From: Alphaproteobacteria bacterium UBA2903
Lineage (GTDB): Bacteria > Pseudomonadota > Alphaproteobacteria > CAAGCB01 > CAG-977
Direction: 5' to 3'
NCBI GenBank assembly: GCA_002349565.1
Contig: DEDN01000030.1
Location: 9,184 to 73,183, forward strand
DNA: 64,000 bases
The notes beneath the pieces were generated by a model. That model ran no database searches, was not told the DNA's origin, and saw only the letters and a list, made by a program, of their open reading frames with translations. Positions 31,619 through 60,673 of this stretch are shown one piece after another (the stretch's first letter is position 1; each line of letters starts with the position of its first letter). Both the position numbers and the translations under genes were made by a program.

Positions 31619-32995
31619 TTAAGCCCGTTTCCATTGCGTCCCGGACGGCGTGTCTTCGATAACAACGCCTTTGTCCGCCAATTCCTTGCGCACGGCGTCC
31701 GCCGTTGCGAAATCTTTGGCTTTGCGGGCATCGGCGCGTTTTTGAATCAACGCTTCGATTTCCGATTCGGACAATCCCTGTTCCTGTTTTGCGGGCGACC
31801 AACGGAACCATTCTTCGGGGTCTTGATACAAAATACCCAACAAATGCCCAGACGCAATCAGCGTTTTTTTCAGTTCGACCGCTTTTTCGGGCGATTTGTT
31901 CATTTCGGTCACAAGCCCGTGCAGAACGGCAATCGCTTTCGGCGTGTTCAAATCGTCGCTCAACGCTTCGACCACTTCGGCGGACGGCAGAGCTTCCGAC
32001 AAATCAACCGCAGGCGTCAACCGCAAAGCCGTATAGAATCTGTCCATAGTCTGCTTGGCTTGTTTCAAACCTTCGGGCATCCAGTTCAGCGGCTGGTGGT
32101 AATGCGTTCCCAACGCGTACAGGCGGAACGCTTCCCCCGGCACTTGGTCAAGGATTTCGCGAATGGTAAAGAAGTTGCCCAAAGACTTGGACATCTTTTC
32201 GCCGTTGACCATCAAATGCCCGTTGTGCATCCAGTATTTGGCGTAGAAATCGTGTCCGAAAGCACAGCACGACTGCGCGATTTCGTTTTCGTGGTGCGGG
32301 AAAATCAAGTCCTGCCCGCCGCCGTGAATATCGAACGTTTCGCCCAAGTATTTGCTGCTCATCGCGGAACATTCCAAGTGCCACCCCGGACGGCCGCGCC
32401 CCCAAGGGCTGTCCCACCCCGGCTGAGTATCGTCGGACGGCTTCCACAAAATAAAGTCGGCGGCGTCGCGTTTGTACGGAGCAACCTCGACACGCGCGCC
32501 GGCAATCATTTCATCCATGGAGCGTCCCGACAGGCGTCCGTAGTTTTTCATCTTGGCAACGCTGAACAAAACATGCCCTTCGGCTTCGTAAGCATAGCCG
32601 TTGTCAATCAGCTTTTGCACCAAAGCAATCATCTCGGCGATATGTTGCGTGGCGCGCGGTTCGATGTCGGGCGGCAAAGCGTTCAGTTCGGCAATGTCGT
32701 CGTGAAAGAATTTCGCCGTTTTTTCGGTAATGACGTTAATGGGTTCGCCCGATTCCTGCGACCGTTTGATGATTTTGTCGTCCACATCGGTAATGTTGCG
32801 GACATACGTTACCTTGGGATACAGCTGTTTGAGCAAGCGGTACAGCGTATCGAAAACGATAATCGGGCGCGCGTTGCCGATATGAGCGCGGTCATAAACC
32901 GTCGGACCGCAAACGTACATGCGGACGTTATTCGGGTCAAGCGGCTCGAATTTTTCCTTTTTGCGGCTCATCGTATTTGTAACGTACAAAGTCAT
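31619..32995 (-). CDS. cysS: Cysteine--tRNA ligase
   Basis: It has MYVCGPTVYDRAHIGNARP (HIGH) and KMSKSLGN, and is 458 aa. Confidence 0.9.
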   Translation of the reverse strand: MTLYVTNTMSRKKEKFEPLDPNNVRMYVCGPTVYDRAHIGNARPIIVFDTLYRLLKQLYPKVTYVRNITDVDDKIIKRSQESGEPINVITEKTAKFFHDDIAELNALPPDIEPRATQHIAEMIALVQKLIDNGYAYEAEGHVLFSVAKMKNYGRLSGRSMDEMIAGARVEVAPYKRDAADFILWKPSDDTQPGWDSPWGRGRPGWHLECSAMSSKYLGETFDIHGGGQDLIFPHHENEIAQSCCAFGHDFYAKYWMHNGHLMVNGEKMSKSLGNFFTIREILDQVPGEAFRLYALGTHYHQPLNWMPEGLKQAKQTMDRFYTALRLTPAVDLSEALPSAEVVEALSDDLNTPKAIAVLHGLVTEMNKSPEKAVELKKTLIASGHLLGILYQDPEEWFRWSPAKQEQGLSESEIEALIQKRADARKAKDFATADAVRKELADKGVVIEDTPSGTQWKRA

Positions 32996-33000
32996 CTCTT

Positions 33001-34356
33001 TTATCCTTGCAAACGTTTTAAAGTTTTTTCATAGCCCAAGACAGGCAGCAGCATTTTCAATTCGGGTCCCTGCTCCAGTCCCGTCAGCGCCAAACGTATC
33101 GGGTGGAACAAATCGCGCCCTTTGCGTCCTGTTTTTTCCTTGACGGCGGCGGTCCAAGCCCCGAACGTGTTTTCGTCAAACTCGCCCGCCGGCAGCAATT
33201 CCGCCGCCTGACGCGCAAAAGCGCGGTCTTCGGCGCTTAAATCGAAAGTCAAATCTTCGCCGCAGATTTTCACCCAGTCGTTTACGTCGTCGACCTTGGT
33301 CAAATTCGGCGAAACCGCCGCCCACAGCTGTTCGGAAATCGGGGCTTTGCCCTCGGCTTTCAAACGGTCGTTGACTTCGGACAGCGGCAAAGCGTGAACA
33401 ATGCGGGGATTGAGCTTGAACAAATCCTGCGTGTCGAAATGCGGCTGAGCGCGTCCGAATTTGGTCAAATCGAAATGCGGCGCAAGCGCTTCCATGCTGG
33501 TTTCGACTACGGTCGCGTCCGACGTTCCCAAGCGCGCCAGCAAACAGGCGATAGTCATCGGCTCGATGCCCGCTTCACGCAAATCGCGGAAGTTGACGGA
33601 CCCCATACGTTTGGACAGTTTGCCCTCTTTTCCCGTCAGCAAAGGCGGATGTCCGAACACGGGAACCTTGCCGCCCAAAGCTTCGAACATCTGAATTTGA
33701 ACGGCGGTGTTTGTAACATGGTCTTCACCGCGGATAACGTGCGTAATGCCGAAATCCATATCGTCGATGACGGACGGTAGCATATAGGGGAAAGTCCCGT
33801 CTTCGCGCACAATAATCGGGTCGCTTAAATGCGCGCCGTTGTACGAGCAATGCCCGCGCACCATATCGTCCCACGACGTTTCCTTGTGTTCCAGAACAAA
33901 GCGGTAGTGCGGACGGCGCCCTTCGGCTTCGTACGCTTTGCGCTGTTCGTCGGTCAAACGCATGCCCGCGCGGTCGTAAACAGGCGGCAGCCCGCGCGCG
34001 TGCTGGCGGCGGCGTTTGTATTCCAATTCCTCCGCCGTTTCGTAGCAGGCGTAAATCAAGCCTTTGGCGCGCAACTGTTCGACGACTTCGCGGTAACGCT
34101 CCAAACGGGCGGATTGATGCTCCAGCCTGTCCCAAGAAATCTTCAGCCAGTTCAGTGCTTCGTAAACGGCGGCTTCGTATTCGGGCTTGGACCGTTCCGT
34201 GTCGGTGTCGTCCATTCGCAAAACGAAAGACACGTCCTCGCCCGCCTGTTTTTTATTCAAAGCAAACAGATAATTCAACAACGCCGTACGCAGATTCCCG
34301 ATGTGCATATATCCCGTCGGGCTGGGGGCAAAACGAACAACAATCACTTTAATCAA
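33001..34356 (-). CDS. gltX: Glutamate--tRNA ligase
   Basis: It has RFAPSPTGYMHIGNLRTAL (HIGH) and KLSKRMGS (KMSKS variant), and is 451 aa. Confidence 0.9.
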   Translation of the reverse strand: MIKVIVVRFAPSPTGYMHIGNLRTALLNYLFALNKKQAGEDVSFVLRMDDTDTERSKPEYEAAVYEALNWLKISWDRLEHQSARLERYREVVEQLRAKGLIYACYETAEELEYKRRRQHARGLPPVYDRAGMRLTDEQRKAYEAEGRRPHYRFVLEHKETSWDDMVRGHCSYNGAHLSDPIIVREDGTFPYMLPSVIDDMDFGITHVIRGEDHVTNTAVQIQMFEALGGKVPVFGHPPLLTGKEGKLSKRMGSVNFRDLREAGIEPMTIACLLARLGTSDATVVETSMEALAPHFDLTKFGRAQPHFDTQDLFKLNPRIVHALPLSEVNDRLKAEGKAPISEQLWAAVSPNLTKVDDVNDWVKICGEDLTFDLSAEDRAFARQAAELLPAGEFDENTFGAWTAAVKEKTGRKGRDLFHPIRLALTGLEQGPELKMLLPVLGYEKTLKRLQG

Positions 34357-35831
34357 ACCTTCTTGGTAATGGGATAATCCCAGTCTTCGTCAAAAGAACG
34401 GCGGGACAATCTGATGCCCTGCGCGCCCTGTTTGCGCTTGAATTCCGCGCGGTGCAACAGCTGCCAAACTTTGCGAACCGTCGCTTCGTCATAGCCCGCG
34501 GATATAACTTCGTCAACACCCGCGTCATTTTCAATCATCATTTTCAAAATCGCGTCCAAAGTCGGATACGGCGGCAAAGAATCCTCGTCCTTTTGGTTCG
34601 GACGCAGTTCCGCGGTCGGCGCTTTGGTAATCAGGTTGTCGGGCATCACGCGCTTGATATCGTTTTCAATCCAGCGCGGATGGTTTTCGTTGCGCCAGCG
34701 CGCCAAAGCGTAAGCGTCCGTTTTGTACAAGTCCTTTATCGGCGCAAAGCCCCCGCACATATCGCCGTACAAGGTCGAATAGCCAACGGCTTCCTCGGAT
34801 TTGTTGCAGGTTGCCAGCAGCAAATCGCCGAATTTGTTGGACAACGCCATCAGCATCGTGCCGCGCATGCGCGCCTGCAGGTTTTCCTCGGTCGCGTCAC
34901 GGTCTTTGCCCGCGAACACGGGAGCAAGCACATCCTCCATCGCTTTGACGGGATCGAGAATCGGCAGGATGTCATAGCGGATGCCCAAACATTCGGCAAC
35001 CGCGCACGCGTCGTTCAGGCTTTCCTCGCTGGTAAAAACGGACGGCATCATCACGGCGCGCACTTTGTCCGCGCCCAAAGCGTCAACGGCGATTGCGGCG
35101 CACAGCGCGCTGTCGAACCCGCCCGACAATCCCAGCAAAACGCCGTTAAAACCGTTTTTGCGCACATAGTCGCCGACGCCCATCGTCAGCGCGCGCCAAG
35201 TGTTTTCGGGTTCGCTTGTCCACGGCCACGACACTTCGTCAACGCCCGCGACGCCATCTTTCCACAGCGGCAGGCATTCGATAAAGCCGCCGTCCAAATC
35301 CAGCATGAACGAACCGCCCGCAAAAACCGCGCTGTCGTTTCCGCCGACAAGGTTTGTATAAACCAGCGGCAGACGGATGCGCGACGCGAACGTGCGGGCG
35401 TGTTCCAGCGTTTCGGTGACCGTGCCGCTTCTGAACGGACGGGCGTCCAGAACAATCAGTTTGTCCACGCCGTTGCAGTTGACGGGTTCAAAGCCGATCG
35501 AAACCGCGACCGTCAACCCCGTAATCGTAAAGTGATTGCCGTAATGCACCCCTTTGGAGTTGACCAGAACGGGCGTCGCACCGCCCGCGCCGTCGGGAAT
35601 GGCGGTCAAAACCTCGCGGTCGTTGTGATACAGTTTTTCCAGCGTTTTATGGACGTTCGCCATAAAGGATTTGGAATAAGCCAAATCCCCCAAAGGCCAG
35701 CCCGTCAAAGCGTAAGCGGGCAAAACCAGCGTTTCGCCTTTGCTTTGAATCCCCTGTTCCGCCGCCCAATGGATTTTTTTCAAATTTCCTTCCAAATCGC
35801 CGGCTACAGGGTTGATTTGCGCAATCAGCAT
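34353..35831 (-). CDS. nadE: NAD+ synthetase NadE with truncated/degenerate N-terminal CN-hydrolase (glutaminase) domain
   Basis: The C-terminal half has the PP-loop GLSGGFDSALCAAIA and NAD-synthetase motifs. The N-terminal approximately 210 aa resembles the CN-hydrolase domain, but the expected catalytic positions read PAYAL (not PE-LT) and SIGFE (not ICxE). The protein is 492 aa, against about 540-560 aa for typical Gln-dependent NadE. It overlaps the gltX stop. Confidence 0.75.
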   Translation of the reverse strand: MLIAQINPVAGDLEGNLKKIHWAAEQGIQSKGETLVLPAYALTGWPLGDLAYSKSFMANVHKTLEKLYHNDREVLTAIPDGAGGATPVLVNSKGVHYGNHFTITGLTVAVSIGFEPVNCNGVDKLIVLDARPFRSGTVTETLEHARTFASRIRLPLVYTNLVGGNDSAVFAGGSFMLDLDGGFIECLPLWKDGVAGVDEVSWPWTSEPENTWRALTMGVGDYVRKNGFNGVLLGLSGGFDSALCAAIAVDALGADKVRAVMMPSVFTSEESLNDACAVAECLGIRYDILPILDPVKAMEDVLAPVFAGKDRDATEENLQARMRGTMLMALSNKFGDLLLATCNKSEEAVGYSTLYGDMCGGFAPIKDLYKTDAYALARWRNENHPRWIENDIKRVMPDNLITKAPTAELRPNQKDEDSLPPYPTLDAILKMMIENDAGVDEVISAGYDEATVRKVWQLLHRAEFKRKQGAQGIRLSRRSFDEDWDYPITKKV

Positions 35832-35903
35832 ACGGATTCCTCCAAAATTTTTAATAAATTTAAGCCAGTTTATCGCGCTTTTTGTCGGAATGCCATAAAA
35901 AAA

Positions 35904-36806
35904 CTATTTTGTTTCAATTTCTTTCAATCGCGCTTCGATTTCGCACAAAGCCGGCAAAGATTCCTGCGCCCCCGTTTTCAAACACGCCAAAGCCGCACCG
36001 CAACACGCATGCCGCACGGCGTCCGCAAAGGACAGCCCCGCGTCAATCATAGCGGCGAATATGCCGACAAACGCATCGCCCGCCCCCGTCGTGTCCACGG
36101 GCGCGATCGGCAAAGAGACTACCGACAGCACTTGCCCGTCCTTGGCGGCGACGACGCCTTTTTTGCCCAAAGTCATCAGGCATGCCCCGCCCGTTTTTTC
36201 AGACAGGGCAAGGACGGTTTTTTCGGGTGTTTCGCCCGCTTTGCCCAAAACGGTTTGCGCTTCGATTTCGTTGACAATCAGATAATCGATGTTCCGCAAA
36301 GCGGTTTGCGGTACTTCGCGCGCGGGGGCGACGTTCAGAACCGTTTTTGCGCCTTTGGCTTTCGCGCGTTCCAACAGGGCGAAATTTTCTGCGGGCGGGA
36401 CTTCCATTTGCATTACGACGACCGTTTCGGGCGTCAGCAAAGCGTCGGGAACGGCGGCGGCGCTGAGGTTCATATTTGCGCCGCTTGCCACAACAATCGA
36501 ATTTTCCGCGGTTTCGTCAAGCATGATCATCGCCATTCCCGTTGCCGAATCCGTCTTTTGCACGAAAGAACAATCGACCCCGACCGCTTTCAATGCCGTC
36601 AGCGGCACTTTGGCGATTTCGTCCGCCCCGACCGCGCCGACAATTTTGACAATGCCGCCCGCTTTTGCCGCGGCGGCGGCTTGGTTCGCCCCCTTGCCGC
36701 CCGCTTTGACAACGGCGTTCGGAGTCAAAACCGTTTCCCCCGGCTTTGGAAAAGACTGGATTTTCAAAAAGAAATCCGCGTTCAGCGATCCGAAAACGAC
36801 TATCAT
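35904..36806 (-). CDS. PfkB-family carbohydrate kinase (ribokinase-like)
   Basis: It has the N-terminal GG motif (VVKAGGKGANQAAAAAKAG) and the PfkB signature 2 (PVDTTGAGDAFVGIFAAM). It is 300 aa. Confidence 0.8.
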   Translation of the reverse strand: MIVVFGSLNADFFLKIQSFPKPGETVLTPNAVVKAGGKGANQAAAAAKAGGIVKIVGAVGADEIAKVPLTALKAVGVDCSFVQKTDSATGMAMIMLDETAENSIVVASGANMNLSAAAVPDALLTPETVVVMQMEVPPAENFALLERAKAKGAKTVLNVAPAREVPQTALRNIDYLIVNEIEAQTVLGKAGETPEKTVLALSEKTGGACLMTLGKKGVVAAKDGQVLSVVSLPIAPVDTTGAGDAFVGIFAAMIDAGLSFADAVRHACCGAALACLKTGAQESLPALCEIEARLKEIETK

Positions 36807-36937: not shown

Positions 36938-37921
36938 ATGGCTAAAGACGACGATTGGGACGCCGACGATTTGGAAGACGAAGAAGACTACGACGACGAA
37001 GAGGATGATGAAGACGACGATGCGGACAAGGAAGACTCCGCCCGTTCGAAACGACTGGTCGTCGCGTCGTTGAAGATTCTTGTTTCGCTGGCTTTGCTGG
37101 GCGGCGCGGCGATCGTCGTTTTCGCCCCCGGCAAAATTCCGGCGAATCTGACCGCCAAAGTAAAACAGGCAACGCCTTTCATCGAACAAGCCAAACGGCA
37201 GGTTTCTTCCGCCGCGTCGAAAATCACGGCTTCCGACAAAAAAGCGCCGACGCCGCCCCGTATCGCCCCCGCGCGGGAACCGGAAGCCGCCCGCCCCGCC
37301 GCCCCTGTCGATTTCGCGCAAAAACGCGAAATGCCGATAACGGCGGAACCGGTTGAAAAAAACGCAGAACAGCCTGTCGAGCAGCCTGCCAAACCGCAGC
37401 AAAACCGTTTCAACATCAGCGGCAGAGGGCAAATTCCCGATTTGCTGACAGCGATTTCAAACGATCCGCAGCTGAAAGACATTCTGCTCAAAGCGGATGT
37501 CTATACTTTCGAAAAGCTGCCCAAACTGCGTCCGTTCATCAAGTCCTTGATTCTGCGCTGGGCGAAAACGAACAGCTATCCGATGGTTGAAGCCTTGACC
37601 GGCGTTCCGTTCAAAACGTTCGAAGACCATGTTTTGGTTGAACTGTTGCCGTTTACGACGCTGAAACAGGCGGGCTTGACGCCGTCGTATGACGAAAGGC
37701 TGATCAAAGAAAGCCCCTCCAACGCCGCGGGAACGCTGTTCACATACCTGAAACCCGTTGTAGACGCTTTGGATTCGGACAAGGACAAAATCGATACCGT
37801 CGAACCGATTGCGACTTTCTTTGTTTATAAATGCGGCGGCAAAAAAGACTGCCTGATGGCGCTGGATCTGCTGATAGAAATGTTGGGATTGACGGAATAC
37901 AAGGATAAACTGCCGCAATGA
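36938..37921 (+). CDS. Hypothetical membrane-anchored protein (highly acidic N-terminus, single TM, Pro/Ala-rich linker, approximately 170-aa C-terminal domain)
   Basis: The N-terminus is MAKDDDWDADDLEDEEDYDDEEDDEDDDADKEDS. The TM is LVVASLKILVSLALLGGAAIVVFAP, and the linker is PTPPRIAPAREPEAARPAAP. The stop overlaps the ATG of the next gene (ATGA). Confidence 0.55.
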   Translation: MAKDDDWDADDLEDEEDYDDEEDDEDDDADKEDSARSKRLVVASLKILVSLALLGGAAIVVFAPGKIPANLTAKVKQATPFIEQAKRQVSSAASKITASDKKAPTPPRIAPAREPEAARPAAPVDFAQKREMPITAEPVEKNAEQPVEQPAKPQQNRFNISGRGQIPDLLTAISNDPQLKDILLKADVYTFEKLPKLRPFIKSLILRWAKTNSYPMVEALTGVPFKTFEDHVLVELLPFTTLKQAGLTPSYDERLIKESPSNAAGTLFTYLKPVVDALDSDKDKIDTVEPIATFFVYKCGGKKDCLMALDLLIEMLGLTEYKDKLPQ

Positions 37922-39732
37922 CAAAAACGCGTGACTTTTTTTGGCGGATCAGAATCGGCATTATCAGCCGCACAGCCGCTTTCAAAGAAAAAGCAATTCG
38001 GACGTTTCAAGCCGTCCGCCGTTTTTCCCTGCGCCAAAGTCTGCGCGCGTTTCCGTCCGCAGCGCGTCAATTTTTCAAGCATACGCCTCAAACGCTGCTG
38101 CTGTGGACCGCCAAAGCCAAAGGCGGGCGGCTTCGGCTGATTTTGCTGTTTGCGATTTTGTCCGTCGTTTTCGGGCTGGCTGCCATGCCGTTCCGCTTTA
38201 TTGCGAACGACGGTTTCGTGTCGTTCCGTTATGTCGCGCAATCCGCCGCCGGAAACGGCTTTGTCTGGAATCCGCCGCCGTTTGAACCCGTCAGCGGATA
38301 CACCAGCTTTCTGTGGCTGGTTTGTTTGCGGATTTTGTGGTTTTTCGGATTTCAGCCGCCGTTTTCCGCGAATCTGCTGACTTTTTCGTTTTCGATGGGG
38401 GCGGTGGTTTTCGGCTTTTTGTTTTTGCGGCGCGCGCCGTTTTCGCCCGTTCTGCAAAGCAAAAGCTTTTTTCTGTTTTTGCTTTATTGTTTGATTTTGC
38501 TGACAAATCCGACCTTTTTGATGTTTTTCTGGTCGGGAACGGAAGCCGCTTTGTTCAATTTTCTGGTTTTGTGGTGGACATACACCGCCGCAGGCAAAGA
38601 CAAACACCCCGTCAAACAATCCGTTATCGCCGTTTTACTGGCAATGACACGGTGGGACGGCGTTGTTTTTCTTCCGTTCACGCTGATTTTAAACATTCTG
38701 ACGTTCAAACATGCCAAACTGAAGTCCGTTGCGGCGGCGGCGTTTTTGTGCCTGTCCTATTTTTATTTCGATTGGATAAAGCAAACTTACGGTTCGGTCA
38801 TTTCGACAAGCTTTGCCGCTTTGCGAAAAGACAACTTGCCGTTCGGATTTGATTACGCCGGCAGCTTCGCCGTCGAATACGCCCTTTGGTTTTGGGGAAT
38901 TTTCTTTGCGGCAGGTGCGTTGTTCAAAATCGCGCGGCACAGAAAAGCGGAACTGGAGTTTCCCTGCTTGATGATAGTGCTGTTTACGGCATATATCTTG
39001 TTTTTCTCCGTCCTTATCGGAGCGGACGTTTTGGCTTACCGTCCTTTGTCGTTCTTTGTCCCGCTTGCCGCTTTGGGCGCGATCAGAGTGCTGACTGCCG
39101 GCATTACAAGCCGCCTGAGAACGGTTGCCGCGATTGTTTGTCTGTATGTCGGGCTGTCGCTGGTCATTCCGATCACGCATTTTGCCGAGGTTCGCGACTT
39201 GACGACCCGTCGGCAAACGGCGTTTTTGTACAAACCCGTCGGCAAACCCTTGTTAGCTTTCTTTGCGGATTACTGGAACAAAGCGCAGCAGCGTTTGATA
39301 TATCAAGGGGCGGCTTTGCGGCACAAAGAACATCAAGTCTTGTTCAACGAACTGACAAAAAGCCTTCCTTCGCGCGAAAAAGGCAAACTGCTGAAAGCCG
39401 AATACCGCCGCATACTGGCATGGGATTTTGCGGGACAGATTGGTTGGGTGTTTCCGTATGTTTACATTTTGGACACATCGGGACAAAACGACCGTTTTAT
39501 CGCGGCAAGCAAATTCAAGTACGACAACCGCCGTCTGTTGGGACATGAAAGAGTCGTCGCACAGGGATATCCCTTGTGTTTCGGCGGAAACAATCTGAAA
39601 ATCACACCGTTTGACGGAACGCCAGACGTTCAGTACATCCCCGCGCCGTTTCCGCTGACGGACGGCATTATCAAAGGATGCGAAAAGCTGTGGAATCCTT
39701 TGAACAGCCGCATTCCCGTCAAAAAGAATTAA
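37918..39732 (+). CDS. Large polytopic membrane protein, possible GT-C-fold glycosyltransferase-like (speculative)
   Basis: It is 604 aa with more than 10 hydrophobic segments, for example [41 protein letters not shown] and [15 protein letters not shown]. The extracytoplasmic loops have conserved-looking acidic/aromatic motifs ([12 protein letters not shown]) and the C-terminal soluble domain is approximately 150 aa. The antisense ORF 37825..38619 is Lys/Arg/Gln junk. Confidence 0.55.
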
Positions 39733-41703: not shown

Positions 41704-43530
41704 CTATTCCACAGTCACGCTTTTTGCCAGATTGCGCGGCTGATCGACATCCGTTCCTTTCGCAACAGCTGTATGATACGCCAACAGCTGAACGGGAATG
41801 GCGTACAAAATCGGCGCAACGAACGAATCGACCGTCGGCAGGATAATCGTCGCCGCGGAACGGTCTTTGACCGTGCCGACGCCGTCCTTGTCGCCAAAGA
41901 AAACAACCTTGCCGCCGCGCGCCAAGACTTCCTGCATATTGGAAATCGTTTTATCGAACAGTTCGTCCGTCGGCGCGACAACCACGACGGGCACGCCTTC
42001 GTCAATCAAGGCAATCGGTCCGTGCTTCATTTCGCCCGCGGCGTATCCTTCGGCGTGAATGTACGAGATTTCTTTGAGCTTCAGCGCGCCTTCCAAAGCA
42101 ATCGGATAGCTGCTGCCGCGCCCCAAATACAAAACGTCGTGCGCGGGAACCATCAGATTTTGCGCGATTTTTTCAATCGCTTTGTCATTGTTCAGCACTT
42201 CGGCGGCGCGGGACGGCACTTCGACCAAAGCGCGGGACAGGCGGCTTTCCTCCGATCGGGACAGCGCGCCTTTCGCCCTCCCCAAGGCAATCGCAAAGCA
42301 CGCCAGCAGCGTCAGTTGAGTCGTGAACGCTTTTGTGGACGCGACGCCGATTTCGGGACCCGCCAAGGTTTTCAGCACGCAATCGGATTCGCGCGCCATG
42401 GTGCTGGCGGAAACGTTGACGATAGAAACGATTTTCTGCCCCTGCTCTTTGCAATAGCGCAAAGCCGCCAGCGTGTCCGCCGTTTCGCCCGATTGGGAAA
42501 TGAACAGCGCGACGCCGCCTTTTTCCATAACGGGACGGCGATAGCGGAATTCGGACGCGACGTCGATGTCGACGGGAACGCGCGCAATCGATTCAATCCA
42601 GTATTTGCCGACCAAGCCCGCGTAATACGACGTGCCGCACGCGACAATCGTCAAACGGGTCATTTCCTTTAAATCAAACGGCACGTTCGGCAACGTGATG
42701 GTGTCCATATCCTGATTGATCATCGTGTTCAGCGTATCGCCGATGACTTGCGGCTGTTCATAGATTTCTTTAAGCATAAAGTGACGGTAGCCGCCTTTGC
42801 CGATCATCGCCCCCGATGTCGAAGATTGTTCGACGGGACGTTCCGCTTCCTTGCCGTTTTCGTCATAGACCGTGGCGGACGAGTGCGTCAAAACAACCCA
42901 GTCGCCGTCTTCCAAATACATAATCTTTTGCGTCAAAGACGCCAGAGCCAAGGCGTCGGAGCCGAGGAACATCTCGCCGTCGCCGAAGCCGACCGCCAAG
43001 GGAGCGCCTTTGCGTGCGCCGATTAGAATGTCTTCACGTCCCGCGAAAATAATCGCCAGAGCAAACGCGCCGTTCAGCCGTTTCAACGACTGCGCGACCG
43101 CCGTTTGCGGGTCAAGCCCTTCCTCGATTTTCTGGGAAATCAGATGAACGACGACTTCGGTGTCCGTTTCGCTTTCGAAAACGTGTCCCAGTTCTTTCAA
43201 TTCGTCGCGCAGTTCGCGGTAGTTTTCGATAATGCCGTTATGCACGACGGCGACGTATTTCGTCGCGTGCGGGTGCGCGTTCGTTTCGTTCGGAACGCCG
43301 TGCGTCGCCCAGCGGGTATGCCCGATTCCGATTGTCCCCGTCAGCGGATTTTCGGCGATTTTCTTTTCCAGATTGACGATTTTCCCCTTGGCGCGGCGGC
43401 GTTCGATTTTGCCGTCAACCAGCGTCGCCACCCCCGCGGAATCGTAACCGCGGTATTCCAGCCGTTTCAGCCCGTCAATCAGCAACGGGGTAACTTGTCT
43501 GTTCGATATAATGCCTACAATGCCGCACAT
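41704..43530 (-). CDS. glmS: Glutamine--fructose-6-phosphate aminotransferase (isomerising)
   Basis: It has the N-terminal MCGIVGI (Ntn Cys) and two SIS domains, and is 608 aa. Confidence 0.92.
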   Translation of the reverse strand: MCGIVGIISNRQVTPLLIDGLKRLEYRGYDSAGVATLVDGKIERRRAKGKIVNLEKKIAENPLTGTIGIGHTRWATHGVPNETNAHPHATKYVAVVHNGIIENYRELRDELKELGHVFESETDTEVVVHLISQKIEEGLDPQTAVAQSLKRLNGAFALAIIFAGREDILIGARKGAPLAVGFGDGEMFLGSDALALASLTQKIMYLEDGDWVVLTHSSATVYDENGKEAERPVEQSSTSGAMIGKGGYRHFMLKEIYEQPQVIGDTLNTMINQDMDTITLPNVPFDLKEMTRLTIVACGTSYYAGLVGKYWIESIARVPVDIDVASEFRYRRPVMEKGGVALFISQSGETADTLAALRYCKEQGQKIVSIVNVSASTMARESDCVLKTLAGPEIGVASTKAFTTQLTLLACFAIALGRAKGALSRSEESRLSRALVEVPSRAAEVLNNDKAIEKIAQNLMVPAHDVLYLGRGSSYPIALEGALKLKEISYIHAEGYAAGEMKHGPIALIDEGVPVVVVAPTDELFDKTISNMQEVLARGGKVVFFGDKDGVGTVKDRSAATIILPTVDSFVAPILYAIPVQLLAYHTAVAKGTDVDQPRNLAKSVTVE

Positions 43531-59740: not shown

Positions 59741-60511
59741 TCAAGCGTCGGCTTTATCGGCGACTTCGACGTCTTCGACAACGGTTTCCTGAGCGCCCAA
59801 ATCAACGCCCGCGGCGGTCATTTCCGCCTGAATGCCGTCCAACACGGAACCCGCGATCAAATCGCAGTACATGTTGATGGCGCGGATGGCGTCGTCGTTG
59901 CCCGGAACGGGAAATTCAATGTCGTCGGGGTTCGAATTCGTATCGCAAATCGCGATGACGGGAATGCCCAAACGGCGCGCTTCGTTCAAAGCCAAGCCTT
60001 CTTTGACGGTGTCGATGACGAAAATCAAATCGGGACGACCGCCCATGTCTTTGATGCCGCCCAGCGAGCAGTCCAGTTTTTCACGTTCGCGTTCCAGATT
60101 CAGTTTTTCCTTTTTGGTCAAACCTTCCAGTTCGCCTTTTTCCTGCTTGGCATTGATTTCTTTCAAGCGGCGAATCGACTGTGAAACGGTTTTCCAGTTC
60201 GTCAGCGTGCCGCCCAGCCAGCGGTGGTTGACATAGTACTGACCGCAACGTTCGGCAGCTTCGCGAACAGCCTGCTGAGCCTGATTTTTCGTACCGACGA
60301 ACAAAACGCGGCCGCCGTTTGCGGCGACATCGCGCGCCGCCTGCATGGCGCGGTACAGCATCGGAACCGTCTGCTGCAAGTCGATAATGTGAACATTGTC
60401 GCGCGTGCCGAAAATGTACTGTTTCATTTTCGGATTCCAGCGGCGGGTGTTGTGACCAAAGTGAACGCCCGCTTCAATCAGCTGACGCATTGTGAATGTG
60501 GGAAGAGCCAT
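59741..60511 (-). CDS. rpsB: 30S ribosomal protein S2
   Basis: It has [22 protein letters not shown] and is 256 aa. Confidence 0.92.
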
Positions 60512-60519
60512 TTTATATC

Positions 60520-60600
60520 CTCTTTTTCCGGTTAAACCTCCGCGGGTTGTTGAGGCGGGAACCCTCCCGCCACCGGAGCGATTTTCCCCTTGCGAAGAAA
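60520..60600 (-). promoter_or_regulatory. Structured GC-rich 5' leader of rpsB (nested stems), candidate S2 autoregulatory element
   Basis: The sequence ctccg-cgggttgttga-ggcggga-accc-tcccgcc-ac-cggag forms nested perfect stems immediately upstream of the rpsB start. Confidence 0.35.
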
Positions 60601-60673
60601 TCCGCCTGTACCCGCGTGTGAAATCGGGTTGTTTTTACCCTGTTTTTTTTCCTTTTGCAAGCGTTTTTATCAT

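What the first reader, a model, noticed from the sequence alone, without database searches (positions are those of the whole stretch)
34353..35831. NadE whose N-terminal glutaminase (CN-hydrolase) domain appears catalytically dead and shortened
The C-terminal half is a standard NAD synthetase (PP-loop SGGFDS). The N-terminal approximately 210 aa still align with the nitrilase-type glutaminase domain of glutamine-dependent NadE, but the positions expected for the Glu-Lys-Cys triad read ...LVLPAYALTGWP... (Ala instead of the catalytic Glu of PE-LT) and ...VSIGFEPV... (Gly instead of the nucleophilic Cys of ICxE). No Lys is evident at the expected place. The domain is also about 50 residues shorter than normal. 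This suggests an ammonia-dependent enzyme that retains a vestigial glutaminase domain, or a domain repurposed for another ligand.
Basis: partly seen in the sequence, partly recalled or inferred. Interest (0 to 1): 0.5.

Follow-up and report, generated by a model that had tools for sequence, protein, structure and literature searches.

The report
NAD synthetase with a dead glutaminase domain
A group of uncultured gut and rumen bacteria makes its NAD-forming enzyme with an attached glutamine-splitting domain that has lost every catalytic residue yet is still strongly conserved, so the enzyme most likely uses free ammonia, although databases label it as glutamine-dependent.

Summary
The ORF at 34353-35831 (-) encodes a 492-aa two-domain NadE. 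Its synthetase half is intact: PF02540 at 2.7e-72, PP-loop SGGFDS, and 118 of 138 canonical-conserved positions kept.

Its N-terminal nitrilase-fold domain lacks the whole Glu-Lys-Cys triad, the second Glu/YRE-loop block and the helix after the nucleophile. The protein is about 55 residues shorter than its nearest relatives. Four independent alignments agree that no triad residue remains; they differ only on what replaces the Cys.

This is not decay. The same architecture occurs in 27 species-level MAGs of gut/rumen Alphaproteobacteria, in a conserved pfkB-nadE-gltX-cysS locus. The dead domain is under purifying selection as strong as the synthetase domain (dN/dS about 0.09 vs 0.10-0.14). It still folds confidently as a docked CN-hydrolase sandwich.

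The best reading is a secondarily ammonia-dependent NadE derived from a dimeric NadE2(Gln). The pseudo-glutaminase domain is kept as a structural, ammonia-entry or regulatory module, as in CPS1.

Other NadE lineages have also lost triad residues, mostly independently. I found no published description. Ammonia dependence and the absence of a second nadE could not be tested here.

The parts
34353..35831 (-). nadE ORF, 492 aa plus stop: a two-domain NAD+ synthetase with a pseudo-glutaminase N-domain
   Evidence: ORF. NCBIfam NF010588 'NAD+ synthase' scores 532 bits against a cut-off of 479. Best PDB matches are 4f4h, 5kha and 3n05.
35838..35843 (-). Shine-Dalgarno GGAGGA, 6 nt upstream of the ATG
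   Evidence: Read directly from the sequence. It supports the annotated start, so the short N-domain is not a mis-called start.
35217..35831 (-). N-terminal CN-hydrolase (nitrilase-fold) pseudo-glutaminase domain, residues 1-205
35715..35717 (-). Codon for Ala39, at the position of the catalytic Glu (canonical P-E-L reads P-A-Y)
   Evidence: phmmer against 4f4h, MAFFT, hhalign and hmmalign all agree. Ala39 is invariant in the clade.
35472..35642 (-). Remodelled core, residues 64-120. The Lys strand, the YRE-loop/second-Glu block, the Cys-Glu nucleophile elbow and the following helix are deleted or replaced.
   Evidence: Alignments. DSSP comparison of the window model with the canonical P0040 model. 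The segment is still constrained: dN 0.164, against 0.180 for the synthetase domain.
34356..35216 (-). NAD+ synthetase (PP-loop ATP pyrophosphatase) domain, residues 206-492
   Evidence: PF02540 at 2.7e-72 and TIGR00552 at 194.6 bits. 118 of 138 canonical >=90%-conserved columns are retained.
35109..35126 (-). PP-loop SGGFDS, residues 236-241
   Evidence: Read from the sequence. S236, G237, G238 and S241 are invariant across the clade and the canonical enzymes.
34356..34424 (-). Extended C-terminal loop, residues 470-492, the signature S-domain element that contacts the G-domain. It is retained, but the canonical invariant Arg-Arg is changed (R540 to an invariant Trp484; R541 becomes variable).
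   Evidence: The alignment runs to the end of 4f4h. Substitutions are listed. The role of the loop is described in PMC3376133.
35904..36806 (-). Upstream neighbour: PfkB-family ribokinase-like kinase, 300 aa
   Evidence: TIGR02152 ribokinase scores 252.9 bits, below the 299.65 cut-off. It is syntenic with nadE in 21 of the 24 loci that hold DNA upstream of nadE.
33001..34356 (-). Downstream neighbour gltX (glutamate--tRNA ligase), abutting the nadE stop; cysS follows at 31619-32995
   Evidence: TIGR00464 scores 344 bits. The order nadE-gltX-cysS is conserved in every locus that extends far enough.

Best explanation
This is the housekeeping NAD+ synthetase of a clade of uncultured gut/rumen Alphaproteobacteria. 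It descends from a dimeric, glutamine-dependent NadE2-type enzyme and has become secondarily ammonia-dependent.

Shown: the synthetase domain is intact. The fused nitrilase-fold domain has lost the Glu-Lys-Cys triad, the second Glu/YRE loop that binds glutamine and gates the ammonia tunnel, and the helix behind the nucleophile. The remodelled domain still folds, still docks on the synthetase domain in the canonical orientation, and is under strong purifying selection.

Inferred: NaAD is adenylated by ATP at the PP-loop site, as in any NadE. The amide nitrogen comes from free NH3/NH4+ rather than from glutamine. This is affordable because these organisms live in ammonia-rich gut and rumen contents.

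Inferred: the pseudo-glutaminase domain is kept because the synthetase domain of fused NadEs depends on it, through the alpha9/alpha18/alpha20 helices and the C-terminal-loop interface. The hollowed-out former active site may also serve as the entry to the ammonia tunnel. The situation parallels the inactive glutaminase-like domain of ammonia-dependent CPS1.
For: - Synthetase domain intact: PF02540 at 2.7e-72, SGGFDS, NF010588 above its cut-off; 118/138 canonical-conserved columns kept.
- Triad and YRE block absent by phmmer, MAFFT, hhalign and hmmalign. Only 32/80 canonical-conserved N-domain columns are kept.
- Descent from NadE2(Gln): the best solved relative is 4f4h, and the nearest synthetase-domain relatives are triad-intact enzymes at 59-60% identity.
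- Selection: N-domain dN/dS about 0.09-0.10 against 0.10-0.14 for the synthetase domain over 26 coding sequences; identity 80% vs 77%.
- Vertical, housekeeping character: 27 species-level genomes, all from gut, rumen or faeces, with conserved pfkB-nadE-gltX-cysS synteny.
- Canonical fused NadEs accept ammonium as nitrogen donor (PMC6946656; PMC7196632).
- The loss is specific to NadE: GlmS in the same window keeps its nucleophile Cys (MCGIVG).
- The C-terminal loop that contacts the G-domain shows a fixed R-to-W change, consistent with co-adaptation of the interface.
- Precedent: the inactive glutaminase-like domain of CPS1, an enzyme that uses free ammonia (PMC4655335).
Against: - No enzymology exists, so ammonia use is inferred only from loss of the glutaminase residues.
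- The rest of the genome could not be searched, so a second nadE or a stand-alone glutaminase subunit acting in trans cannot be excluded. Only the 64-kb window was checked.
- The strength of conservation, with 59 clade-specific fixed positions, is more than a purely passive scaffold obviously needs, which leaves room for a new function.
- The AF2 alignment included canonical sequences, which may bias the model towards the canonical fold.
- dS is near saturation for many pairs, so the dN/dS values are approximate. The 13 low-dS pairs give 0.024 for the N-domain and 0.061 for the synthetase domain.
Confidence: 0.7

Rival explanations
1. Neofunctionalised domain: the remodelled nitrilase-fold domain has gained a new ligand-binding, regulatory or catalytic role. 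Examples would be an allosteric sensor for NAD+ or a nitrogen-status signal, a docking site for a partner protein, or hydrolysis of a different amide using new residues. NAD synthesis would be controlled or fed through it.
For: - 59 positions in the N-domain are >=95% conserved within the clade but differ from the canonical consensus, including polar residues H61, S111, D129, E143, H144, R146, R151, R153 and D178.
- dN/dS is as low as or lower than in the catalytic domain.
- Canonical NadE2 enzymes have an allosteric NAD+ site and bind PII, both at unmapped locations (PMC7196632).
Against: - No recognisable new motif or family match appears in the N-domain.
- No PII gene lies near nadE in the window or in 27 related loci.
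- The glutamine-binding YRE loop is deleted, so glutamine sensing is unlikely.
- High conservation can also be explained by a tight interface with the synthetase domain.
Confidence: 0.15
2. Trans-complemented or redundant enzyme: the genome also encodes a separate nitrilase-like glutaminase subunit, as in the two-subunit Thermus NADS, that delivers ammonia to this protein. Alternatively a second canonical nadE does the main job and this copy is an accessory paralogue.
For: Two-subunit NADS systems exist, and many genomes carry more than one nadE (PMC3376133). The genome outside the window could not be inspected.
Against: - No second NadE or CN-hydrolase lies in the 64-kb window or within +/-10 kb in the four contigs that carry this exact protein.
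- The gene sits in a conserved housekeeping block next to gltX and cysS, and diverges at the same rate as gltX.
- Its own N-domain occupies the docking surface that a separate G-subunit would need.
Confidence: 0.1
3. Artefact: the triad is really present and only mis-aligned, or the gene is a decaying pseudogene or an assembly error.
For: The region between residues 64 and 120 aligns unstably. Different programs place different residues under the Cys.
Against: - No program places Glu, Lys or Cys at any triad position.
- No Cys or Lys is conserved in residues 60-120.
- All 25 assemblies that hold the complete gene read as intact ORFs of the same length, with dN/dS about 0.1.
- The fold is confidently predicted.
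Confidence: 0.02

Closest known systems
Dimeric glutamine-dependent NAD+ synthetase NadE2(Gln), e.g. Burkholderia thailandensis (PDB 4f4h), Acinetobacter baumannii (5kha), Azospirillum and Herbaspirillum NadE2
   Same: - Same two-domain architecture and the same NCBIfam equivalog, NF010588.
- The synthetase domain is 57-60% identical to alphaproteobacterial members.
- The extended C-terminal loop and the interdomain packing are retained.
- These are the closest sequence relatives, and they are triad-intact.
   Different: - Lacks the catalytic Glu, Lys and Cys, the second Glu/YRE loop, and the helix following the nucleophile.
- About 55 residues shorter.
- Only 29% identity in the N-domain.
- The C-terminal-loop Arg-Arg is changed to Trp-x.
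- Predicted not to hydrolyse glutamine.
Single-domain ammonia-dependent NadE(NH3), e.g. B. subtilis 1nsy, E. coli 1wxi, H. pylori 1xng
   Different: Those enzymes have no N-terminal domain at all. According to PMC3376133, they also lack the alpha18 helix and/or the extended C-terminal loop. The window protein keeps a 205-residue nitrilase-fold domain and the C-terminal loop.
Carbamoyl phosphate synthetase 1 (CPS1) of ureotelic vertebrates: an ammonia-dependent enzyme with an inactive glutaminase-like S2 domain
   Same: An amidotransferase that switched from glutamine to free ammonia. It kept the dead glutaminase domain as a conserved, integrated part of the enzyme, and the ammonia path is thought to be re-routed (PMC4655335).
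   Different: - Unrelated folds: a class I triad GATase in CPS1, a nitrilase-type class IV domain here.
- CPS1 lost mainly the Cys (Cys to Ser), whereas this NadE lost all catalytic residues plus about 55 residues of structure.
- This is an analogy of mechanism, not homology.
Two-subunit NADS of Thermus thermophilus (a separate nitrilase-like G-subunit plus an S-subunit)
   Same: It shows that the G and S functions of NADS are separable and that the S-domain interface elements mark G-partnered enzymes (PMC3376133).
   Different: In Thermus the G-subunit is catalytically active and is a separate protein. Here it is fused and inactive.
Other triad-less fused NadE lineages found here (e.g. P0202, P0208, P0268, P0316, P0238, P0196, P0341)
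   Same: They are two-domain NadEs in which one to three triad residues are replaced or deleted, and several are also shortened to 483-529 aa.
   Different: - They are only 36-44% identical to the window protein overall.
- Their nearest synthetase-domain relatives are mostly triad-intact, which indicates independent losses.
- All are rare sequences, in clusters of 1-3 members.
- None shares the window clade's specific remodelled N-domain: 403 bits for the clade representative against <=93 bits for everything else.

Membership tests
NAD+ synthetase (NadE), PP-loop ATP pyrophosphatase family (PF02540) | Significant match to the NAD_synthase profile over the whole domain | tested here: met
   PF02540 at E=2.7e-72, residues 212-468, covering profile positions 2-241 of 242. 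TIGR00552 scores 194.6 bits against a cut-off of 63.65.
NAD+ synthetase (NadE), PP-loop ATP pyrophosphatase family (PF02540) | PP-loop motif SGGxDS | tested here: met
   S236-G-G-F-D-S241. S236, G237, G238 and S241 are invariant across 75 aligned sequences.
NAD+ synthetase (NadE), PP-loop ATP pyrophosphatase family (PF02540) | Conservation of family-invariant synthetase residues | tested here: met
   118 of 138 columns that are >=90% conserved in canonical relatives are retained.
NAD+ synthetase (NadE), PP-loop ATP pyrophosphatase family (PF02540) | [quoted passage not shown] | not testable with these tools
   Requires an enzyme assay.
Fused two-domain (type F) NadE, dimeric NadE2(Gln) subtype | N-terminal nitrilase-fold domain fused to the synthetase domain | tested here: met
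Fused two-domain (type F) NadE, dimeric NadE2(Gln) subtype | Score above the curated cut-off of the two-domain NAD+ synthase equivalog model | tested here: met
   NF010588 scores 532.2 bits against a cut-off of 479. The score comes mostly from residues 117-491.
Fused two-domain (type F) NadE, dimeric NadE2(Gln) subtype | Glutaminase catalytic triad Cys-Glu-Lys (tbNadE C176/E52/K121; PMC6946656) | tested here: not met
   Glu is replaced by Ala39. The Lys strand is deleted. Cys is absent, with Ala, Thr, Gly or a gap in its place depending on the aligner.
Fused two-domain (type F) NadE, dimeric NadE2(Gln) subtype | YRE loop and second Glu, which bind glutamine and gate the ammonia tunnel | tested here: not met
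   The canonical invariant block L114-E122 (P0040 numbering) is deleted in the clade. The role of the loop is described in PMC6946656.
Fused two-domain (type F) NadE, dimeric NadE2(Gln) subtype | S-domain elements that contact the G-domain, notably the extended C-terminal loop (PMC3376133) | tested here: met
   The alignment runs to the C-terminus of 4f4h (query 491 to chain 559). The loop is present, but with R540 changed to W484. The alpha18 helix was not mapped individually.
Fused two-domain (type F) NadE, dimeric NadE2(Gln) subtype | Glutamine as physiological nitrogen donor | not testable with these tools
   Predicted to be lost, from the missing catalytic residues. Needs an assay with Gln vs NH4+.
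Fused two-domain (type F) NadE, dimeric NadE2(Gln) subtype | Homodimeric quaternary structure, NAD+ feedback inhibition, PII relief | not testable with these tools
   Only a monomer model could be made. No PII gene is adjacent in the window or in 27 related loci, which does not bear on the interaction itself.
Single-domain ammonia-dependent NadE(NH3) | Synthetase domain only (about 250-290 aa), with no N-terminal domain | tested here: not met
   The protein is 492 aa, with a folded 205-residue N-domain.
Single-domain ammonia-dependent NadE(NH3) | [quoted passage not shown] | tested here: not met
   The loop is present.
Single-domain ammonia-dependent NadE(NH3) | Free ammonia as the only nitrogen donor | not testable with these tools
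   Predicted here, but it needs an assay.
Nitrilase / CN-hydrolase superfamily enzymes | Alpha-beta-beta-alpha sandwich fold | tested here: met
Nitrilase / CN-hydrolase superfamily enzymes | Catalytic Glu-Lys-Cys (plus the second Glu) | tested here: not met
   As above.

The most novel reading that the evidence does not exclude
The remodelled nitrilase-fold domain is not just a scaffold. It would be a new functional module, either a dedicated intake vestibule for external ammonia or a regulatory/ligand-sensing domain. Fused NadEs with pseudo-glutaminase domains would then form a recurrent, previously unrecognised functional class that breaks the rule 'fused NadE = glutamine-dependent (EC 6.3.5.1)' used in enzyme classification and genome annotation.
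Probability: 0.25. Interest if true: 0.65.

Novelty: new variant of a known kind. Interest (0 to 1): 0.45.

Why it matters
NadE catalyses the last, essential step of NAD synthesis. The field divides these enzymes into single-domain ammonia-dependent and fused glutamine-dependent forms, and domain architecture and S-domain signatures have been proposed as sufficient to tell them apart (PMC3376133). This clade, and the other triad-less lineages seen here, carry the full 'glutamine-type' architecture without any glutaminase machinery.

Three consequences follow:
- **Annotation:** automatic annotation and metabolic models will assign the wrong nitrogen donor and the wrong EC number. For example, JGI names the Cys-less P0196 'NAD+ synthase (glutamine-hydrolysing)'.
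- **Enzymology:** this is a natural experiment on what the glutaminase domain contributes beyond catalysis, such as folding, tunnel formation or allostery. It is a nitrilase-class counterpart to the CPS1 case.
- **Ecology:** it suggests that life in ammonia-rich gut and rumen contents relaxes the need for glutamine-derived nitrogen in cofactor synthesis.

The prediction can be tested directly with one recombinant protein.

Tried and rejected
- **Mis-alignment.** I tested this with phmmer against PDB, two MAFFT alignments, profile-profile hhalign, and hmmalign to a canonical HMM. All lack E/K/C, so I rejected it. My first hmmalign count was off by one residue because of trimming; one search corrects it.
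- **Pseudogene or assembly error.** Rejected: the ORFs are intact in all 25 assemblies that hold the complete gene, and dN/dS is about 0.1.
- **Mis-called start.** Rejected: there is a strong Shine-Dalgarno, and the N-terminus aligns with canonical N-termini.
- **Second nadE or separate CN-hydrolase.** tblastn of canonical NadE against the window found only the ORF itself.
- **NAD-related riboswitch.** The Rfam gathering-threshold scan found only an rpsB leader at 60513-60620.
- **One ancient family for all triad-less NadEs.** Not supported: the nearest synthetase-domain neighbours of most of them, including the window clade, are triad-intact.
- **AFDB Foldseek.** The library was unavailable.
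- **Literature.** Searches for an inactive, degenerate or pseudo glutaminase domain in NadE found no description. Only CPS1 papers use 'glutaminase-like domain'. The library lacks most subscription-journal papers (e.g. the 2018 JBC paper on dimeric NadE2), so absence of a report is not proof of novelty.
- **Taxonomy.** The search for CAG-239/RF32 gave nothing useful for this gene. Placing the clade in GTDB order RF32 is my recollection and was not tested.
Full report
**What is there.** The window carries an intact 492-aa ORF on the minus strand at 34353-35831. A GGAGGA ribosome-binding site lies 6 nt upstream of the ATG. The C-terminal 287 residues are a standard NAD+ synthetase: PF02540 at E=2.7e-72 over the whole profile, TIGR00552 at 194.6 bits, and the PP-loop S236-GGFD-S241. 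The whole protein passes the curated cut-off of the two-domain 'NAD+ synthase' equivalog NF010588 (532 bits against 479). Its best solved relatives are the dimeric glutamine-dependent enzymes of Burkholderia thailandensis (4f4h, E=8e-111) and Acinetobacter baumannii (5kha). The N-terminal 205 residues barely register as CN_hydrolase: PF00795 scores 25.1 bits against a cut-off of 23.2, and only residues 3-55 align.

**Checking the observation.** The phmmer alignment to 4f4h places 'LVLPAYALTGWP' under 'LIAPELALSGYP'. It then jumps from query 63 / chain 71 to query 118 / chain 182, so about 55 residues are missing.

MAFFT alignments with 8 and 49 canonical relatives, a profile-profile hhalign of the clade against canonical enzymes, and hmmalign to a canonical HMM all agree on three points:
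- The catalytic Glu is Ala39.
- The catalytic Lys is deleted, together with the invariant 'LPNYGVFDE' block. That block is the counterpart of the YRE loop and second glutamate, which bind glutamine and gate the ammonia tunnel in tbNadE/hsNadE (PMC6946656).
- The 'ICED.W' nucleophile elbow is replaced by 'AVS(I/V)GFEP'.

No aligner finds a Cys, and no Cys or Lys is conserved in residues 60-120 of the clade. Of 80 N-domain columns that are >=90% conserved in canonical relatives, only 32 are kept. In the synthetase domain 118 of 138 are kept. The only correction is that 'Gly replaces Cys' is not determinable.

I compared DSSP strings with a model of a canonical relative (P0040). The beta-sandwich and helices alpha1, alpha2 and alpha4 are kept but trimmed. 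Missing are the loop and short helix after the Lys strand (P0040 111-125), the helices behind the nucleophile (147-161) and a linker strand (249-253). The domain is therefore a pared-down nitrilase fold, docked on the synthetase domain in the canonical orientation. One caveat: canonical sequences were part of the input alignment.

**Distribution and selection.** A search of the 5.8-billion-protein collection returns 25 clusters of 492-493 aa at 64-96% identity. Identity then drops sharply to about 43% for ordinary 547-560-aa enzymes. A scan of GTDB species representatives found 27 loci. All are MAGs of uncultured Alphaproteobacteria from human gut, rumen, horse faeces and similar sources (HGM, UMGS, RGIG and UBA bins, and 'Acetobacter sp. 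CAG:977'). One further record is an obviously mislabelled 'Limosilactobacillus' bin.

The order nadE-gltX-cysS-hyp193 holds in every locus that extends downstream, and pfkB precedes nadE in 21 of the 24 loci that hold upstream DNA. NadE diverges at about the rate of GltX.

Within the clade the dead domain is, if anything, more conserved than the synthetase domain: about 80% vs 77% identity to the window protein. Nei-Gojobori dN/dS over 26 coding sequences is 0.09-0.10 for residues 1-205 and 0.10-0.14 for residues 206-492. The 13 least-diverged pairs give 0.024 and 0.061. Even the remodelled segment 60-120 has a lower dN than the synthetase domain. Fifty-nine N-domain positions are fixed in the clade but differ from the canonical consensus.

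The history is therefore one burst of remodelling in the clade's ancestor, followed by long purifying selection. 'Vestigial' is the wrong word.

**How unusual is it?** I searched the N-domain alone against 1.84 billion cluster representatives. It found one representative of this clade at 403 bits and nothing else above 93 bits, so this particular remodelled domain is clade-specific.

However, several weaker hits were also short and matched in one piece. Aligning them and scoring all 80 non-clade full-length two-domain hits against a canonical HMM gave this result:
- 60 have an intact Glu-Lys-Cys triad.
- 20 lack at least one triad residue. Examples are A-- (P0202, P0268), K-- (P0203), KPE (P0316) and E-K-G (five clusters).

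These come from other uncultured lineages, including a Micrococcales MAG and another alphaproteobacterial MAG, and are rare (clusters of 1-3 members). By synthetase-domain identity, the nearest relatives of the window clade (59-60%) and of most other degenerate lineages are triad-intact enzymes. The losses are therefore mostly independent. The sample is biased towards degenerate domains by the choice of query, so it gives no prevalence estimate. All 94 ordinary relatives are triad-intact.

**Mechanism.**
- Shown: an intact PP-loop synthetase; no glutaminase catalytic residues; no glutamine-binding/gating loop; preserved fold and domain packing; strong constraint.
- From the literature: fused NadEs can use free ammonium as well as glutamine (PMC6946656; PMC7196632). 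[quoted passage not shown]
- Inferred: the enzyme adenylates NaAD and amidates it with free ammonia. The N-domain is retained because the synthetase domain of this lineage co-evolved with it. The only radical fixed change among the conserved synthetase-domain positions is in the C-terminal loop, where the invariant Arg-Arg becomes Trp484-x, as expected for a re-fitted interface.
- Speculative: removing the Lys/YRE loop and the nucleophile elbow opens the former active site as an ammonia entry to the old tunnel.
- My own knowledge, not tested: rumen and colon contents are ammonia-rich (millimolar), which would remove the advantage of glutamine-derived nitrogen.

As a control, GlmS in the same window keeps its nucleophile Cys, so the loss is specific to NadE.

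The closest conceptual precedent is CPS1. Its glutaminase-like domain is inactive (Cys to Ser) while the enzyme takes ammonia from the medium (PMC4655335).

**Rivals.**
- A new ligand-binding or regulatory function for the domain is compatible with the many clade-specific fixed polar residues. It has no positive support: no motif, no family match, and no linked PII gene.
- A trans-acting glutaminase or a second nadE cannot be excluded, because only the window and +/-10-kb flanks could be searched.
- Mis-alignment, pseudogene and assembly artefact are rejected.

**Comparison with known families.** The protein is a member of the NadE PP-loop family; all sequence-level criteria are met. Architecturally and phylogenetically it belongs with fused, NadE2-type enzymes. 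It fails their defining functional features, the catalytic triad and the YRE loop. It should therefore not be filed as a glutamine-dependent NAD+ synthetase (EC 6.3.5.1), even though the curated equivalog model accepts it. It is also not a member of the single-domain NadE(NH3) group, although it probably works like one.

The statement in PMC3376133 that the S-domain signature elements are necessary and sufficient to recognise glutamine-utilising enzymes fails for this clade.

I found no description of triad-less fused NadEs in five literature searches (and reading). The searchable library is incomplete.

**Verdict.** The feature is real, conserved and clade-wide. It is a new variant of a known enzyme kind, of moderate interest. 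It corrects an annotation rule and offers a clean natural system for asking what a dead amidotransferase domain is kept for. The concept has precedent (CPS1), and the key functional claim, ammonia-only activity, remains to be measured.

Noticed in passing
Proteins P0202, P0208, P0268, P0203, P0253, P0316, P0238, P0255, P0235, P0341, P0196, P0251, P0269, P0295, P0333, P0199, P0285, P0300, P0275, P0330: At least 20 other 50%-identity clusters of two-domain NadE lack one or more triad residues. Several are also shortened to 483-529 aa. Their nearest synthetase-domain relatives are mostly triad-intact, so triad loss in fused NadE looks recurrent and independent. JGI names P0196 (Glu-Lys-Gly) 'NAD+ synthase (glutamine-hydrolysing)'.
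   Followed up: partly
Protein P0285: This 522-aa NadE-like protein has a degenerate glutaminase triad (E-Q-G). Its synthetase motifs also look degenerate (SGGADGAL; the NKSE and YGD motifs are missing). It may be a fully non-catalytic NadE homologue.
   Followed up: no
L005 (CAVCSV010000024.1): The record is titled 'Limosilactobacillus gorillae ... cleanbin'. It carries a 32-kb contig with the alphaproteobacterial glmS ... pfkB-nadE-gltX-cysS locus, with most genes 89-97% identical to the window. The bin is contaminated or mislabelled.
   Followed up: partly
window 36938-37921 (+) and 37918-39732 (+): Two overlapping genes are transcribed divergently from pfkB-nadE. One encodes a 327-aa protein with a very acidic D/E-rich N-terminus and a hydrophobic segment. 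The other encodes a 604-aa protein with only a faint resemblance to an arabinofuranosyltransferase (26.5 bits). Neither matches a Pfam or NCBIfam family. They evolve much faster than their neighbours within the clade (28-64% identity, against 75-99% for the flanking housekeeping genes).
   Followed up: partly
window 60513-60620 (-): There is an Rfam rpsB leader/sRNA match (RF01815, 50.6 bits, E=8e-07) immediately upstream of the ORF at 59741-60511 (-). It is the only Rfam family above its gathering score in the window.
   Followed up: no
window 34353-34356: The longest gltX ORF (TTG start) overlaps the nadE stop codon by 4 nt. Gene callers on identical contigs start gltX 3 codons later, 6 nt after the stop (448 aa). 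Either way nadE and gltX are tightly packed and probably co-transcribed with cysS.
   Followed up: no
window 41704-43530 (-): GlmS keeps its N-terminal nucleophile Cys (MCGIVG). I used this as an internal control: another glutamine amidotransferase in this genome is not degenerate.
   Followed up: yes
window 35904-36806 (-): The PfkB-family kinase upstream of nadE resembles ribokinase (TIGR02152) but scores 252.9 bits, below the 299.65 cut-off. It is syntenic with nadE in 21 of the 24 loci that hold DNA upstream of nadE. A link to NAD or ribose/nucleoside metabolism is possible but was not examined.
   Followed up: no
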